Assembly: GCA_965217895.1 (NCBI GenBank)
Contig: CBDCJV010000002.1
Span: 288,001 to 352,000 of the forward strand
Source: Waterburya sp.
GTDB lineage: Bacteria; Cyanobacteriota; Cyanobacteriia; Cyanobacteriales; Xenococcaceae
DNA: 64,000 bases
Direction of reading: 5' to 3'
The position numbers and the translations under genes were made by a program. How positions within the stretch are numbered: position 1 is the stretch's first letter; every line of letters starts with the position of its first letter. Of the stretch, positions 45,298-52,382 are shown in pieces. Under the pieces are notes generated by a model. That model saw nothing but the letters and a program-made list of their open reading frames with translations, had not been told where the DNA came from and ran no database searches.

Positions 45298-45474
45298 GCC
45301 CCCCAGCCCCCAAGCTTGGCGAGCGACCCCGCGTCGCCGTTAGGCGCAAACGCCAGTTCCTTCGCCCTCAGCAGTCGCTCTTTGTTGGAAACCAACAAGA
45401 TCGCGCTGCTTCGTAAGTCGGGAAACCCGCCCAACGGACTGGCTTGGGAATGCGCGAGTTGGGATTTAGAGGGC
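45298..45474. repeat. Nested small dispersed repeat (SDR-like) cluster
   Basis: GC-rich nested hairpins sharing CAGTCGCT...CGCGCTG and AAGTCG...ACCCGCCCAAC cores with the IS982 insertions. Confidence 0.7.
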
Positions 45475-46327: not shown

Positions 46328-47482
46328 TCAGGCGTGATGTAATAATTCAGTTAATTTATTCAACAACTCTTTTTCGTCATATGGTTTAGAAAAATAAGCT
46401 GAAGCTCCTAAATTCATGGCTAGTTTTTTGTGTTTTTCATTACTGCGAGAAGTCAGCATTGCTATTGGAAGATCGGCAAATTCAGGTCGCTCTTTTATTT
46501 CTTCGAGAACTCCATAGCCATTTAGTCTTGGCATTTCTAGATCGCAGATAATAGCCTGTACAGCCAGCCCGCTAATGAGCTTATCTACAGCTTCTTGACC
46601 ATCTTTGGCTTGTTCAACTTGATAACCTGCTCTTTCTAAAGTTAGACTCAGGTAACGACGTACATTAATCGAGTCATCGACTACCAAAATAGTTGGTGCG
46701 GTCTTTATGTTACTAATTTCTGGCAAATCTAAGCTAGATCGATCCTCAGCCAAGAAATTAATTGCACTTTTATCAGCTAACGCCATCGGGTCGATCAGAG
46801 GAATAACTTTACCATCACCAAAAACCACAGAACTAATTATACCAGGAGGTAAAGGAATCGGACTTTCTATGGTTCTGATAGTGGATTCTTGCTCATTCCA
46901 AAAACGTGCAATTTTTAAGGCAGCATAAGATTGTTTATCCCCAACCACTAAAGTCATCGGGCGATTAATTGTAGGTTCTCCTGTCAAATAGAGAGCATTA
47001 TGTGAACGACCATAGACAAGTATTTTTTCTACTTCTATCAGGGGAATTTCTGACTGATTCCAATCTACTGTTTTGGTGTTTTCTGAAGTTAAGATTGGCT
47101 CTAACTCCAGAGGTATTAACTCTCGAATACTATTAGCGGGAATAGCAAAAATCATGTCTCCCTGTTCAATAATTGCTACCCGTAAAATAGATAATGAAAA
47201 AGGAATTCTGAGGGTGAAAGTTGTTCCTTTTCCTGGTTCAGTAGACACCTGAACATTACCGCGAACTTCTTGCAGATTGGTTTTTACAACGTCCATACCC
47301 ACACCTCTACCTGAAAGTTCTGTAACCTGTTGTGCCGTACTAAATCCAGGCTCAAAAATGAAGTTTAGTAGTTCTGCTTCTGGTATTTGGGCTATTTCAG
47401 ATTGGGAAACGCCCATCTGACGGACGCGATCGCGAATTTTATCAAGACTAATTCCCCCGCCGTCGTCGCTTAGGGTAATGAC
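46328..47482 (-). pseudogene. CheA-like hybrid histidine kinase, 5'-truncated (HATPase C-part, CheW, REC)
   Basis: Frame runs back to VITLSDDGGGI at the IS4 junction; IFEPGFST, SGRGVGMDVV, REC domain; Hpt and dimerisation domains absent. Confidence 0.85.
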
Positions 47483-47485
47483 GCT

Positions 47486-48400
47486 CTAAGTACAGGACAA
47501 AAGTTTTAAAGAATCAAAAAATTCAGACTGTTTTAAATCCAGATCTAAAAAAATAGATCGTAAGTAGTCCAAACCATAGCGAAAAATGCTTTTGGCTAAT
47601 CTTCCATGCTTCTTAATTTTAATGGGATTAGATTGATGTAACCATTCACCCATTTTGATTGCCCAGCATAGAGCCAGAGACATGAGAGCGACAAGCTTAC
47701 TTAACCGTTCTGGGTCAATAAAATGAGTAGACTCAAGACAAAATCCCCTAGTTTTGAACATTCCGAACAATGTTTCAATTGCCCATCGTTTTCCATAGTC
47801 GGAAATAGCTGTTTGAGAAGGGTCAGGGGCAACAACAATCAGCAATTCTCCGTTATCTAAACGCAGAGCAGAAACGTAAACAGAACGTCCCCAAACCCAG
47901 CGACGACCTGATAAAACCTGAGTCTGACCTGGTTTTAAGTTAGCGAAGATAATCGAAGCTCTTAAATCTTGTTTACCATTATTGATGCGATCGCTATGAC
48001 GTATTCTCAATCGAAAGGGAATAGTCGGCTCAATCAGAAGGTAAGTTAACCATTGTTTACCGACGAACTCTCGATCGCCTGTCAGAAAAGCTATTTCAGC
48101 CTCAGGAAACCTCTCATAGAAACTATCGAGTAAATCCATTCTTTCATCACTATTGGAATTACCCTTCTTCTTCAGCATTTTCCAGACGACAGGGTAGGCT
48201 ACACCTACACCATCATGAACTATTCCCAGCATCAAAATATTAAAGCGAGTTTGCCCAAATGACCATTCAGTTCTATCTGTACTTAGAACCCATGGTTGTG
48301 GAATCTCCATTATCTTCACTATTGCTTTAGCAATGACGGAGTAATCTAAGTCAAAATTACGAAAAAATCGCTGTAGACGCTTGTAACTAGAATCAGTTTT
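47486..48400 (-). mobile_element. IS4-family transposase element, 5'-truncated
   Basis: DRTEW, GDREFVG, YGKRWAIETLF (Y-2-R-3-E); end TTGTCCTGTACTTAG; frame extends upstream (DSSYKRLQRFF) to the IS982 IR. Confidence 0.88.
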
Positions 48401-48401
48401 A

Positions 48402-49932
48402 ACCTGAGTTCGGGATAAGGAAAGGGACAGGTAGTAAGCTGAAAATAACTACTTTATTCAACCAACCTGTCCTATGTTTAGTCTAGACGCTTTGTTTTGT
48501 GATGTAGATGATGTCTTGATTCAGTCGCTTCAAGTCGAGAAAGGGGTACTCCCCGCATCTGACCCGCCCAACGCGCTGAATCGCTTTTTGTCATCATTTT
48601 GAGCCTCAATGGAAAGCAAGATTGTTACATCATGGAGGAATTAAAAGAGTTAGGGCAAAAAGTCTCTGTCTGAGCGAGATTATGACAATTTTAATTGCCT
48701 TTCATCAGAATCATTATCGTACCCTCGTCAGTCGCTACAACGTGTCACAGACCCGCAACGCGCTGACTCGCAATTTCAAGCATTTCTATCTCGACTATGT
48801 AAAACAGCATTGGAATACGGCTTTTCCAGGACTTCCTAGCTATCAAAGGTTTGTCGAATGGACTCCTTCAACTCTCGTTCCCTTATGTGTCTATCTCAAA
48901 CATTGTTTTGGAAGCCCGACAGGTATTGGCTTTGTTGATGCGACTAGCCTCAAAGTTTGTCAACACGGTGGTTGTATAAGCTGGGGAAACCCCAGCATAC
49001 CCCACCGTCACAATCGCCGAATCAAACGGCATAAAGTCTTTGACGGTTTAGCTGCTCGTGGCAAAACATCAGTCGATTGGTTTTTTGGTTTCAAACTTCA
49101 TCTAATTGTTAATGAAGTTGGTCAATTATTAAATGCTCAATTAACTCCTGGCAATGTAGATGATCGTCGCCCTATTCCAGAAAGGACTTGTCCGCATCTA
49201 TTACTCAAAGGTCTTTTTGGTAAATTTTTCGCAGCTCGTGGCTATGTCTCCCAAAAGCTCGCTAATCAATTACTAGAAGAATTTGGGATTCAGTTTTTTG
49301 CTAAACCTCGGCTTCACAAGTAGCAGATAACAAGTAGCGCAGCCTGGAGGCTGCCGACGTTGCTCCGCAACGGCCAGACGCGAAGCGCGTCTGCAAGTTC
49401 AACCTCTGCCACAGCAAGCAAAGCTTGCAAAGTCGTCGAAGACGACGACATGGAGCGATAGCTCCTGTGTCAGACAAAGGGCTTGCCCGCATGTATTCAA
49501 GAGTTGAATTATTTTTTCACCTTTTCCTCATCAATGAAGAGGCTGCATATCCAACTTCGGAGTTTTTCTTAATTGCTATCTGCGCGAACGGTCGTTCGCC
49601 GCCTTTGCGAAGGAAAGTCGAGCCGCTCCACGCGGCTGCTACTTGCTACTTAACTCCGAAGGAGTTTGGTAACATGAAGAACAAGCTGATGCGTCTTCAT
49701 GACAAACTTCTTTCCCGTCAACGCTCTATTATTGAAACTATTAATGACCAACTGAAAAATATTTCTCAGATCGAACATTCTCGTCATCGATTGCGAAGCT
49801 AGCCGAAGGCATCGCCAGTCAATTTTTGCGTCAATGTTCTCTGTGGATTAATCGCTTATTGTCATCAACCAAAAAAACCTAGTCTGCGTCTTGATTGGCT
49901 TTTACCTCAATCTGCCTAACCCGAACTCAGGT
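48402..49932 (+). mobile_element. IS982-family insertion sequence carrying six internal hairpin insertions
   Basis: Terminal IRs ACCTGAGTTCGGG (48402) and CCCGAACTCAGGT (49932); transposase motifs [28 protein letters not shown]. Confidence 0.9.
48474..49919 (+). pseudogene. IS982 transposase interrupted by insertions
   Basis: MFSLDALFCDVDD...LLPQSA* reconstructed after removing 567 nt of inserts (879 nt left); the second DDE Asp appears as Ala (FAARGY). Confidence 0.88.
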
Positions 49933-50072
49933 TAACTAGCTTATAGTTCCCAAAGTAAGCTAATAATCGATCGATTTACTGATAATTTTTTTTCAAGATT
50001 TGTGCAAAGGAATTTTGTCAAAGATTCTAAGGATTTATGTTGTTTAAAACACAGTCTATATTTCAATGAAAA

Positions 50073-52382
50073 TTATTTCAGTTCTTTGAATTTGTCCAAT
50101 CCTCCCAGGAATTGCTCTGTCATAAGACTCCATACGGTACGATTTTCATTGATGCGAATATTAGCCTGAACTTCCATCCCAGGCTGAAGATATTTTTTTT
50201 GTCCTTTGATCTTGAGATAGTCTTTGTCTAGCTCAATATTGGCTACATAACGGAAAAAATCATAGGGAGCTTCGGGTTTTAAGGCACTAGCACTAATAAA
50301 CTTGACTTTGCCCTTAATATCCCCATACTCACTATAGTCAAAAGCACTAATTCGCACGTCTGTAGACATTCCTTTTTCAACAAATCCAATATCTTTGGGA
50401 GTAATAAAGATTTCGGCGATTAAATTTTCTGTCGGCACAATTTGCAATACAGGACTAGCTGCCTGACCAGAAGGAGGAACGTATCCAGGATATGCCTTCA
50501 GGTCAAAAACATCTCCTGTTACAGGAGCTTTTATCGTCTGATATTTGAGGTTTTGTTCGGCACTGCTGACTTGACTATTAATTTCGGCTATTTGTTTATC
50601 GTTTTCAACGATTGTTTTATTGAGTTGACTGTCAATGTCTGCTAGTCGTTTGCTATTTTCGGCTCGTCGATCGTATAAATCTTTGGTCGAGAGAGTACCC
50701 GTATTATCTAGCTGCTCTTTAGCTTGAGAAATATCTAGGCTCAATCGCTGTTCTTCTTGCAAGAGGCGATTAATTTCTGATTGTAAGGTTGTTACCTGCT
50801 GTTGCTGGCGATCGCGTTCTAGATTACCTTGCTTGAGATCATCAACCATTGTTTGCTGGCGATCGTTAATTCTTTGTCTTTGCTGATCTACCTGAAGTTT
50901 AGCAATTCCTCCTTGTTTATAGACAGGAACAATAGCTTTTAAAGTTCCCTCTTCAATTTTCAAGCTGTCTTCAGCCTGTTGTCTTGCTTCAGTGTTACGC
51001 TCTATAATTTCTTTTAAGTTTTGTTTACCTGTAGCTAACTGCGCTCGATTGTCCCCTAGCTGAATTTTAGTTTGTTCTAGCTGTTTTTCTAGTTGTTCAA
51101 CCTCTAGTCTGGCCGAGGCGGTTCTTTGTTGCAAATCTGCTCTTGATGCTTCTAATCTAGCCTGTTGTTCTGGAGCTAGTTTTTGATTGGAATTGCCTAA
51201 AAGAGAATTAAACATTTCGTTTTCCTCTTTTAATGCTGCTCTATTGCGAGTGAGTTCTGATACTTCTCTAGGGATTTTTAAAGAGGCAATCACTTCATCA
51301 ATACTTTCGGTATCAATTTTTTCTGACATCAAGGCGCGATAAAATTTGTTTTCTTGTTGCAAAGACTGTCGCACTTTACCCAGGGAATTAACCTGAGCTT
51401 TAGAGGTTGTAGAATCTAAGACTAGTAAAACATCACCTTTTTTTACTCGTTGCCCTTCTTCTACCTTTACTTCTGCGACTACACCATTGGTAGGCACCTG
51501 TATTTCCTGTAGCTTATTAGTAGGCTGAATTATACCTTGGGCAGGAATTACTCGTTCAATCTTGGCAACCAAAGACCAAACAATGGTAAAGATAGTGACG
51601 CCCATAATTCCTGCCATAGTGGCTCTAGACCATCTAGGAGAAGGACGCAAAATTACTGTTTGCTCAAACTTGCGAGATTTAATTGAGGCAGGATCTCGTT
51701 TAATTAAAGAACCATTATCCCCAGAGGCTGTAGTAACAAGCTGTCCAGGGGGATAAGAGCGTTCTTTGAGAGTTTGAGTTTCTGTCTGACTTTTGATTAC
51801 CAACGGAGATATTGCAGGGAGCTTGTTAGCTTCTTGCGTTTGAGGCAAGGCTAGGTTGCGATAAATTCCTGGCCCAATTTGAGCATAACCACGATGTACC
51901 GATCTAATCGCATCGGTAAGTTCTTTGGCGGGAGTGCCTTTGAGTAAATAACCCATTGCTCCAGAGCTAAGAGAGCGAGCAACATATTCCTCAGTATCAA
52001 AGGTACTAAGCACCAATACTTTAACGTCAGAAAATTTCTGGCAAATGATTTTAGTTGCTTCCATGCCGTTCATTCCCGGCATCTCCATATCCATCAAAAC
52101 AACATCAGGCTCAAGTGACTGTACCTGTTTTACAGCGTGTTCGCCATTTTCAGCAACGCCAACTATTTCAATATCTGTTTCTGTTTTGATTAGGGCTTTT
52201 AATCCTTCCCTAATCATTTTTTGATCGTCAACGATTAAAATACGAATTGAACTATTAGAAGAATCGACAGCACGATCATTTCCATAATTAGATTGCCCTT
52301 GATTAAGCAATTTATCCCGTTTAGGTTGAGGCAAACTATTGCCTGAAAGGTAGTCGGTGCTACCATTGCTAGATGAGTTCAT
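50073..52382 (-). CDS. Response-regulator receiver domain fused to HlyD-family membrane fusion protein
   Basis: ILIVDD/LMDMEMP/GYLLKG REC domain; TM helix; VEEGQRVKKGDVLL lipoyl half, long coiled coil, IKAPVTG, LQPGMEV. Confidence 0.85.
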   Translation of the reverse strand: MNSSSNGSTDYLSGNSLPQPKRDKLLNQGQSNYGNDRAVDSSNSSIRILIVDDQKMIREGLKALIKTETDIEIVGVAENGEHAVKQVQSLEPDVVLMDMEMPGMNGMEATKIICQKFSDVKVLVLSTFDTEEYVARSLSSGAMGYLLKGTPAKELTDAIRSVHRGYAQIGPGIYRNLALPQTQEANKLPAISPLVIKSQTETQTLKERSYPPGQLVTTASGDNGSLIKRDPASIKSRKFEQTVILRPSPRWSRATMAGIMGVTIFTIVWSLVAKIERVIPAQGIIQPTNKLQEIQVPTNGVVAEVKVEEGQRVKKGDVLLVLDSTTSKAQVNSLGKVRQSLQQENKFYRALMSEKIDTESIDEVIASLKIPREVSELTRNRAALKEENEMFNSLLGNSNQKLAPEQQARLEASRADLQQRTASARLEVEQLEKQLEQTKIQLGDNRAQLATGKQNLKEIIERNTEARQQAEDSLKIEEGTLKAIVPVYKQGGIAKLQVDQQRQRINDRQQTMVDDLKQGNLERDRQQQQVTTLQSEINRLLQEEQRLSLDISQAKEQLDNTGTLSTKDLYDRRAENSKRLADIDSQLNKTIVENDKQIAEINSQVSSAEQNLKYQTIKAPVTGDVFDLKAYPGYVPPSGQAASPVLQIVPTENLIAEIFITPKDIGFVEKGMSTDVRISAFDYSEYGDIKGKVKFISASALKPEAPYDFFRYVANIELDKDYLKIKGQKKYLQPGMEVQANIRINENRTVWSLMTEQFLGGLDKFKELK

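What the first reader, a model, noticed from the sequence alone, without database searches (positions are those of the whole stretch)
48402..49932. IS982 transposase carrying six precise hairpin insertions: a hotspot or vehicle for tiny mobile elements
Seen: inserts at about 48513-48585 (73 nt), 48721-48771 (51), 48961-49008 (48), 49183-49200 (18), 49313-49668 (356) and 49790-49810 (21). All are GC-rich and self-complementary, with no obvious target duplication. Removing 567 nt leaves an 879-nt frame and a 964-bp IS with intact IRs. Four inserts are multiples of 3. Motifs recur: CAGTCGCT..CGCGCTG twice and AAAGG-n-CCGCAT three times, two of them nested inside other inserts. The adjacent 900-bp IS4 remnant shows none. 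Established: very small dispersed repeats (SDRs) of unknown mobility mechanism are described in cyanobacteria such as Nostoc. Inference: an uncharacterised insertion system that targets this IS and silences it, or rides it as a non-autonomous carrier. Insert boundaries are inferred from my recollection of the family consensus.
Basis: partly seen in the sequence, partly recalled or inferred. Interest (0 to 1): 0.9.

Follow-up and report, generated by a model that had tools for sequence, protein, structure and literature searches.

The report
Tiny hairpin parasites filling dead transposons
A dead jumping gene in a cyanobacterium has collected five tiny (21 to 53 base) mobile hairpin DNAs and one 356-base mini-element; the hairpins land at exact short motifs in many kinds of dispensable DNA, one family appears to pick its landing site partly by base pairing, and the enzyme that moves them is still unknown.

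Summary
All six inserts (73, 51, 48, 18, 356, 21 nt; 567 in all) are real, and natural empty alleles fix the junctions. They are not an IS982-specific system. Each belongs to a genome-wide family of small-dispersed-repeat (SDR)-like elements that also sit in ISAs1, IS5, IS701, IS4, IS630, spacers, host genes and each other. The 21-nt one fits SDR5's published length and HIP1 position. IS982 has the highest load in this genome (2.5/kb against 0.6 for other DDE IS and 0.29 intergenic), but that excess vanishes when the catalogue is not seeded from IS982. Catalytically dead copies still multiplied, so the IS is a sink and passive carrier. New anatomy: the same codons are hit repeatedly in IS982 lineages only 55-65% identical. 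Some families replace 3-5 target bases. In the genus-restricted 48-nt family the target's -4 base tracks a base at the hairpin foot (Fisher p about 4e-4 and 3e-4 in two sets), like guide-based targeting in IS200/IS605. No link to Y1/RAYT genes was found. The scan noted similar micro-inserts before in other genomes.

The parts
48402..49932 (+). IS982 element, dead (frameshift after codon 13 from I1; catalytic Asp2 to Ala); 964-nt backbone plus 567 nt of inserts
   Evidence: (NF033520)
48399..48417 (+). left inverted repeat (element starts ACC at 48402)
   Evidence: (19 nt, 95% complementary)
49917..49935 (-). right inverted repeat; overlaps the transposase stop at 49917-49919. No matching direct repeat around this copy
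48513..48585 (+). I1, 73 nt: CAGTCGCT..CGCGCTG family unit (about 53 nt) at codon 12-13; the same insert (71 nt) is at this codon in several G020 lineages
48538..48560 (+). 23-nt AAAGG..CCGCAT unit nested in I1
   Evidence: L078 has the un-nested parent
48721..48771 (+). I2, 51 nt: ACCCTC..TCGC subfamily at codon 57; target about ATCGY^AAW; also found outside IS982
48963..49010 (+). I3, 48 nt: member of the genus-restricted 'YCA-48' family at codon 121 (4-nt junction ambiguity); three-stem imperfect hairpin
49179..49199 (+). I4: 21-nt unit A[CG]AAAGG-hairpin-CCGCAT[GC]T, net +18 nt (49182-49199)
49234..49236 (+). second catalytic Asp codon changed to Ala (GCT); shared with the copy at C2:169.2-170.3 kb
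   Evidence: (site 49235)
49313..49668 (+). I5, 356 nt: non-coding mini-element with asymmetric ends (TTCACAAG left; subterminal hairpin right), always followed by GTAA, no TIR or TSD; contains 7-mer repeats and nested SDRs; 26 family members in the genome
49474..49494 (+). 21-nt AAAGG..CCGCAT unit nested in I5 (absent from the copy at C2:1876138)
49790..49810 (+). I6, 21 nt: SDR5-like unit between bases 3 and 4 of a near-HIP1 site (TCG^ATCGC); brings an in-frame TAG
47486..48399 (-). IS4 remnant cut at its 5' end by the IS982; carries no insert

Best explanation
The IS982 is an old, dispensable sink whose usable target motifs have been filled one by one by several families of gene-less, SDR-like hairpin elements. 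SHOWN: each family inserts precisely at a short motif, in both orientations in transposase genes. It either inserts cleanly with a 2-4-nt end that mimics the target (48-, 51- and SDR5-like 21-nt units) or replaces 3-5 target bases (21-nt AAAGG unit, 56-nt unit). The same conserved codons are hit again in unrelated IS982 lineages. In the 48-nt family the target base 4 nt before the junction tracks the base at the foot of the element's stem. Dead, insert-bearing IS copies were then multiplied. INFERRED: the donor is a folded single strand that a trans-acting nuclease/ligase grafts into one strand of the target. The target is read partly by protein (fixed CA^A core) and partly by pairing with the element's own 5' foot, the logic of HUH peel-and-paste transposases. 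Transposase genes accumulate the elements because hits there are not purged. Copies spread further by trans-mobilisation of the dead IS and by recombination among IS copies. The enzyme is not identified.
For: Genome-wide families with near-zero reversed-sequence controls. Inserts in ISAs1, IS5, IS701, IS4, IS630 and 40 host-gene hits. Same insert with 1-3 differences on backbones 56-63% identical at codons 84, 121 and 249, with flank identity as short as 0-2 nt on one side. A different internal variant (11-13 differences) at codon 57 in G013, and different variants at codons 146-147 in different genomes. Replacement: parent site GGA in 26 of 26 empty copies against a 21-22-nt unit in 11 filled ones; a 56-nt unit (52-99-nt variants) in place of TAYGG in 4 genomes. 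Stem covariation: 14 of 18 pairs change on both sides, 92% of cells paired; terminal AC..GT 48 and AG..CT 19 of 91. Target -4 base equals the element's -4 base in 19 of 28 sites (7.7 expected) and 15 of 29 new sites (8.6 expected), with no excess at -5 to -7. Catalytic Asp lost in 4 insert-bearing lineages, 3 of them multi-copy. Perfect 6-7-nt direct repeats around 3 of 8 copies.
Against: No mobiliser was found. RAYT loci are flanked by GTAG-type REPs (50 motif hits in 76.6 kb) and not by these families (1 hit). The Y1 transposase count does not track the 48-nt family (rho -0.14, p 0.38, n=39). Base replacement is not a known outcome of peel-and-paste (own knowledge). For the roughly 50-nt units the exact variant is often confined to the homologous codon (I2, I3, codon 46), which allelic transfer explains more simply than independent jumps. 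IS982 is still about 4-fold above other DDE IS in the union catalogue (10 in 4.0 kb; Poisson p 2e-4, or 0.013 counting 7 alleles), so a pure neutral sink may be incomplete.
Confidence: 0.55

Rival explanations
1. Allelic homing or short-patch gene conversion: each insert entered an IS982 site once and was then copied into homologous empty alleles, by recombination among IS copies or by annealing of single-stranded fragments, sweeping through and inactivating the family.
For: All 9 full or near-full IS982 copies of G000 carry inserts and no insert-free parent remains. Exact variants are confined to homologous sites: the I3 21-mer was found in 2 loci of the GTDB collection, both after the same IKVC motif; the IS701 insert is identical in copies about 75% alike. 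Copies are mosaic. Flank identity at codon 121 between the two 84-86%-identical lineages is 12/14 nt against 5.5/7.1 for empty pairs.
Against: Flank identity of 0-2 nt on one side between 60%-identical carriers; different variants at the same codon; exact 21-nt units at dozens of unrelated sites. It cannot explain first insertions, and is probably a second, contributing process.
Confidence: 0.22
2. A dedicated system targets or silences IS982 (or DDE transposases in general), for example by acting on transposition intermediates.
For: Highest load in G000. Other DDE IS 0.6/kb against intergenic 0.29/kb (p 0.004). None in 12.6 kb of IS110, group II, RAYT and TnpB genes. The near-HIP1 site is filled in 5 of 5 such IS982 copies, against 12 of 964 intergenic HIP1 sites.
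Against: With non-IS982 seeds IS982 falls to 0.22/kb, below ISAs1 and IS701. The intergenic rate is under-counted because the seeds came from IS. 281 of 396 clusters are intergenic. 0 of 56 HIP1 sites in other IS are filled. The five filled copies may stem from one event. Insert-free IS982 exist in congeners.
Confidence: 0.1
3. The inserts are tiny introns removed from RNA, so insert-bearing IS stay autonomous.
For: Lineages with in-frame stops or frameshifts multiplied without an intact parent in two complete genomes.
Against: The window copy, its sister and a 5-copy G020 lineage lack the catalytic Asp whatever is spliced. The 56-nt unit deletes the invariant Tyr-Gly codons. Inserts occur in both orientations.
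Confidence: 0.05
4. Enzyme-free origin: replication template switching and microhomology-driven patch insertion create and spread the hairpins.
For: Loop inversions are common, and the sister copy's I3 was rewritten by an inverted copy of downstream sequence.
Against: Fixed unit lengths (74 of 91 at 21 nt; 48 nt across 33 genomes), invariant unpaired bases and constant junctions in unrelated contexts.
Confidence: 0.08

Closest known systems
Small dispersed repeats SDR1-8 of Nostoc and relatives (Elhai et al. 2008, Genome Res 18:1484; paper not held, seen only through citing passages in PMC4390886 and PMC13756078, the rest recalled)
   Same: Very short, gene-less, dispersed, structured repeats. 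I6 is 21 nt and sits between bases 3 and 4 of HIP1, as stated for SDR5. Nesting in each other, in 7-mer repeats and in mini-elements matches my recollection of the paper.
   Different: Most families here are 42-56 nt (SDRs recalled as 21-27 nt); the genus appears to be non-heterocystous (inferred). Target-base replacement, guide-like covariation and repeated hits at transposase codons were not found in print in my searches, but I could not read the 2008 paper.
IS200/IS605 ends and REP/RAYT (TnpA-REP) (PMC3479197 and PMC6006769, passages read)
   Same: Imperfect hairpin of similar size with bulges, no TSD, and a short sequence at the 5' foot whose pairing sets the target bases 5' of the cut.
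   Different: No GTAG tag or CT cleavage site, no flanking or co-occurring Y1 gene, insertion inside genes rather than extragenic, and some families replace target bases.
Non-autonomous HUH-type mini-elements (IS200/IS605- or IS91-derived; recalled) for the 356-nt insert
   Same: Asymmetric ends, subterminal hairpin, fixed tetranucleotide target (TTAC on the other strand), no TIR or TSD.
   Different: No autonomous partner found: all complete left ends pair with a right end within 370 nt, and there is no similarity to IS200/605 loci of the genus.
IS982 family (PMC7335449, passages read)
   Same: About 1 kb, IRs starting AC, DDE transposase, direct repeats of variable length.
   Different: No passage on interrupted copies or MITE-like inserts was found with the six terms searched.

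Membership tests
IS982 | IS982 transposase profile | tested here: met
   NF033520 137.9 bits, cut-off 130
IS982 | about 1 kb with IRs starting 5'-AC | tested here: met
   964 nt, 19-nt IR
IS982 | intact DDE triad (autonomous element) | tested here: not met
   second Asp is Ala; triad assignment by motif is recalled
SDR5 (for I6) | 21 nt long | tested here: met
   definition from PMC13756078 passage
SDR5 (for I6) | inserted between 3rd and 4th base of HIP1 | tested here: met
   15 of 25 hits in GCG^ATCGC, 5 in the IS982 TCG^ATCGC site, 5 degenerate; definition from PMC4390886 passage
SDR5 (for I6) | sequence and structure match to published SDR5 | not testable with these tools
   paper not held
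SDR1-8 (other small inserts) | 21-27 nt unit (recalled) | tested here: inconclusive
   met by the 21-24-nt AAAGG unit; not met by the 48-, 51- and 53-nt units
SDR1-8 (other small inserts) | dispersed multi-copy with compensatory stem changes | tested here: met
REP/RAYT | 5' GTAG/CGTC tag at the hairpin foot | tested here: not met
   inserts begin ACA/ACC/GTC/AGA/ATT
REP/RAYT | copies flank the RAYT gene | tested here: not met
IS200/IS605-type guide targeting | target bases 5' of the cut set by pairing with a guide at the hairpin foot | tested here: inconclusive
   covariation for one base, twice; no biochemical test
IS200/IS605-type guide targeting | cognate Y1 transposase present or co-occurring | tested here: not met
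   no IS200-type TnpA in G000 (one weak, frameshifted RAYT-type hit) and no Y1 match in G020, the two richest genomes
Classical MITE (for I5) | terminal inverted repeats and TSD | tested here: not met
Known RNA families | Rfam match | tested here: not met
   0 matches at E<=1 in 47000-51000

The most novel reading that the evidence does not exclude
The genus harbours an undescribed single-strand grafting enzyme that moves 21-56-nt hairpin cargos with no Y1/RAYT gene. It reads part of its target by pairing with the cargo's own stem foot (so the target is reprogrammable by one base pair) and can swap 3-5 target bases for the cargo. Repeated hits at conserved codons make it a de facto brake on DDE transposons.
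Probability: 0.3. Interest if true: 0.85.

Novelty: new variant of a known kind. Interest (0 to 1): 0.62.

Why it matters
How SDRs move has been open since 2008; a 2026 paper still calls SDR5's function unknown (PMC13756078). This locus and its relatives give matched empty/filled alleles, defined families and two testable rules: one target base pairs with the hairpin foot, and fixed 3-5-nt replacement. That turns the question into a trap assay. A precise, TSD-free insertion of about 50 nt with partly DNA-programmed targeting would be a new mechanism and possibly a tool. The restriction of the 48-nt family to one genus points to where the enzyme should be sought.

Tried and rejected
Rfam: no match. 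RNA: no RNA holder listed; the runs laid were contigs only, so nothing on expression or splicing follows. A k-mer catalogue was too noisy (12,017 loci) and was replaced by seed-based catalogues, which are biased towards their seeds. Search for a gene flanked by SDRs on both sides: 10 genes, none a recognisable nuclease by eye. Candidate enzymes in G000 (2 IS110 frames, group II RTs, 2-3 RAYT genes of which one has an open frame, 1 TnpB): no catalogue hit near the RAYT, Y1, TnpB or IS110 loci; RT and IS110 co-occurrence across genomes was not tested. A longer guide (positions -5 to -9) was not supported. TSD as the source of the flanking YCA repeat is rejected: the 3' copy differs from the target in 9 of 28 and 14 of 29 sites, yet pairs with the element's own stem. 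The L068 row at codon 57 is a nested IS and is not counted as a divergent lineage. The genus-wide comparison (IS982 70 inserts in 45 kb; ISAs1 12 in 38; IS4 8 in 33; IS630 2 in 24) is not like for like, because the IS982 set was partly fetched by similarity to the window and included broken copies. It is not used as evidence of a hotspot. Elhai 2008 and its supplements could not be read and may already describe some of these points.

Full report
Observation. The window lies at G000:C2:288001-352000 of a 5.29-Mb, 39% GC genome with 5,880 HIP1 octamers. The region 48402-49932 is an IS982 (NF033520 above cut-off; 19-nt IRs). Aligned to a natural uninterrupted 967-nt element from a congener (L104; itself with Asp1 to Asn and an early stop), it shows exactly six insertions of 73, 51, 48, 18, 356 and 21 nt. 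The backbone is dead on its own account: I1 shifts the frame after codon 13, and the second catalytic Asp is Ala. By folding energy only I3 beats shuffles (z -5.25).

Other copies in the genome. All 9 full or near-full IS982 copies carry inserts. The sister copy at C2:169 kb has I2, I3 (rewritten by a template switch), I4 and I6 but not I1 or I5. A triplet 99.7% identical has I3, I6 and another 48-nt unit at codon 147. A second triplet, and an 85%-identical decayed copy, share a 48-nt unit at codon 46. Three of 8 copies have perfect 6-7-nt direct repeats. The catalytic Asp is lost by a GATC to GCTC or GAGC change in four insert-bearing lineages, three of them multi-copy. Dead copies were therefore multiplied in trans or homogenised by conversion. 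That is the true part of the 'vehicle' idea: 23 SDR hits in IS982 reduce to 7 site-alleles.

The inserts are members of genome-wide families. The AAAGG..CCGCAT unit has 75 hits (control 1); its terminal pair covaries (AC..GT 48, AG..CT 19 of 91) and 74 of 91 are 21 nt. Inside a parent repeat the empty site is GGA in 26 of 26 copies and the filled site holds the 21-22-nt unit in 11, so 3 bases are replaced. The same is seen between L045 and L072 and among I5 copies. At the window's own site the empty allele does not distinguish replacement from an 18-nt insertion. A 56-nt unit (52-99-nt variants) replaces the five bases TAYGG at IS982 codons 145-146 in four genomes. I6 is 21 nt: 15 of 25 hits lie in GCG^ATCGC and 5 in the IS982 near-HIP1 site, matching the length and position given for SDR5 in passages of PMC4390886 and PMC13756078. 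The I2 pattern has 13 exact hits in 7 of 39 congeners, 7 at IS982 codon 57 and 6 elsewhere (frames that I recognise from memory as IS6, Uma2-like and glycogen-debranching genes). I5 belongs to 26 elements with fixed asymmetric ends and a 3' GTAA target; 14 lie in IS (4 events: IS982, ISAs1, IS5, IS701) and 12 outside.

Recurrent sites. Across the genus the same codons are hit repeatedly. At codons 84, 121 and 249 carriers whose backbones are 56-63% identical differ by 1-3 bases in 48-49-nt inserts, with mean flank identity of 1.7/4.5, 0/2 and 1.0/10.7 nt. That argues for targeted insertion without co-conversion. Different variants at one codon (57, 146, 147) argue the same. Against this, exact variants of the longer units are mostly confined to homologous sites, copies are mosaic, and the two 84-86%-identical lineages share longer flanks at codon 121 than empty pairs do, so allelic transfer probably contributes.

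The 48-nt family. A structural pattern finds it in 33 of 39 genomes of the genus (controls 0) and in 0 of 199 other cyanobacterial genomes searched. In 27 distinct sequences 92% of cells pair and 14 of 18 pairs change on both sides, far above slid controls; three pairs were fixed by the pattern and relatedness inflates the shuffle test. The element ends in NYCA and inserts after NYCA, before A (23 of 28). The target's N equals the element's N in 19 of 28 sites (7.7 expected) and in 15 of 29 newly fetched sites, one per genome (8.6 expected; homologous sites not collapsed, at least two pairs look related). Purine guide goes with pyrimidine target and the reverse in 24 of 28 and 25 of 29 (Fisher p 4e-4 and 3e-4). 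Positions -5 and beyond show nothing. Empty alleles show that the upstream base is native at codons 46, 121 and 249. Because the 3' copy pairs with the element's stem and often differs from the target, it is not a TSD. The simplest reading is target selection by pairing with the stem foot, as described for the guide of IS200/IS605 and TnpA-REP (PMC3479197, passages). This is inference from covariation at one base.

Hotspot test. Counting each IS lineage once, the union catalogue gives IS982 10 in 4.0 kb (2.5/kb), ISAs1 1.3, IS701 0.9, IS5 0.8, IS4 0.5, IS630 0.25, ISKra4 0, IS110/group II/RAYT/TnpB 0 in 12.6 kb, intergenic 0.29 and CDS 0.01 per kb (genes from a simple caller). The excess over other DDE IS has Poisson p 2e-4, or 0.013 for 7 alleles. 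But seeds not taken from IS982 give IS982 0.22/kb, and the IS982-seeded catalogue missed real ISAs1 inserts. An IS5 in G019 has four inserts in 1.07 kb and an IS701 here has three. The window copy is the top of a continuum; a modest IS982 excess is possible but unproven.

Mobiliser. G000 has two IS110 frames, group II RTs, RAYT genes and one TnpB, but no IS200-type TnpA. RAYT loci of 25 congeners are flanked by GTAG-type repeats, not by these families. Y1 counts do not track the 48-nt family. So the elements work like guide-bearing HUH substrates, but membership of REP/RAYT or IS200/IS605 is not met.

Literature and earlier notes. Elhai et al. 2008 was not held; what I say of it beyond SDR5 is recalled. 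I read passages of PMC4390886, PMC13756078, PMC3733652, PMC7335449, PMC3479197 and PMC6006769, and only listings for the rest. Searches returned no description of replacement-type or guide-covarying SDRs. The scan has noted similar micro-inserts in transposases of other cyanobacteria, Opitutales and a Truepera-like genome; these are unchecked leads, and one prompted the replacement test.

Verdict. The IS982-specific reading is not supported, the passive-carrier reading is. The new, testable part is the junction and targeting rules. Interest 0.62.

Noticed in passing
window 49234-49236; L062, L067-L071, L072: The catalytic Asp codon lies in a GATC (often HIP1) and was lost by an A:T to C:G change at the GATC adenine in four lineages; methylated-GATC hypermutability (recalled) is a possible cause.
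   Followed up: partly
window 46328-47484: The IS4 remnant cuts a CheA-like hybrid kinase gene; its 5' part is not beside it, and the gene is continuous in the organism of runs X3-X5. A motif search found only one other such region in G000.
   Followed up: partly
G000:C2:597.9-599.0 kb and five sister copies: A recent IS630 expansion carries a 48-nt unit with an in-frame TAG near the N-terminus in every copy that covers the site; no insert-free parent was found.
   Followed up: partly
G000 ISAs1 copies, e.g. C2:2374615-2376520: Seven to eight copies share a 48-nt unit, a 42-nt unit and the 356-nt element, and sit inside a palindromic repeat (flanks CCCCCAA..TTGGGG).
   Followed up: partly
G000:C2:3520726-3521286 (L227): A RAYT gene with a GTAG-type REP inserted in frame within it and REPs on both sides, as described for subclass 2.4 (PMC6006769 passage).
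   Followed up: no
G000:C2:2364727-2364887 and runs X3-X5 (joint 48473-49890): Short elements with IS982-type inverted repeats (about 160 nt in G000; a deeply covered internally deleted form in the other organism), probably IS982-derived MITEs.
   Followed up: no
window 45307-45458: A cluster of nested SDR-like repeats between gnd and the Rieske-type gene, including a CAGTCGCT..CGCGCTG unit; a near-identical cluster lies at C2:802.5 kb.
   Followed up: no
genus-wide: Genomes richest in the 48-nt family (G020, G000, G006, G017) have 0-1 Y1 transposase matches, while some Y1-rich genomes have none of the family; weak negative trend (rho -0.47, p 0.09, 14 better assemblies).
   Followed up: partly
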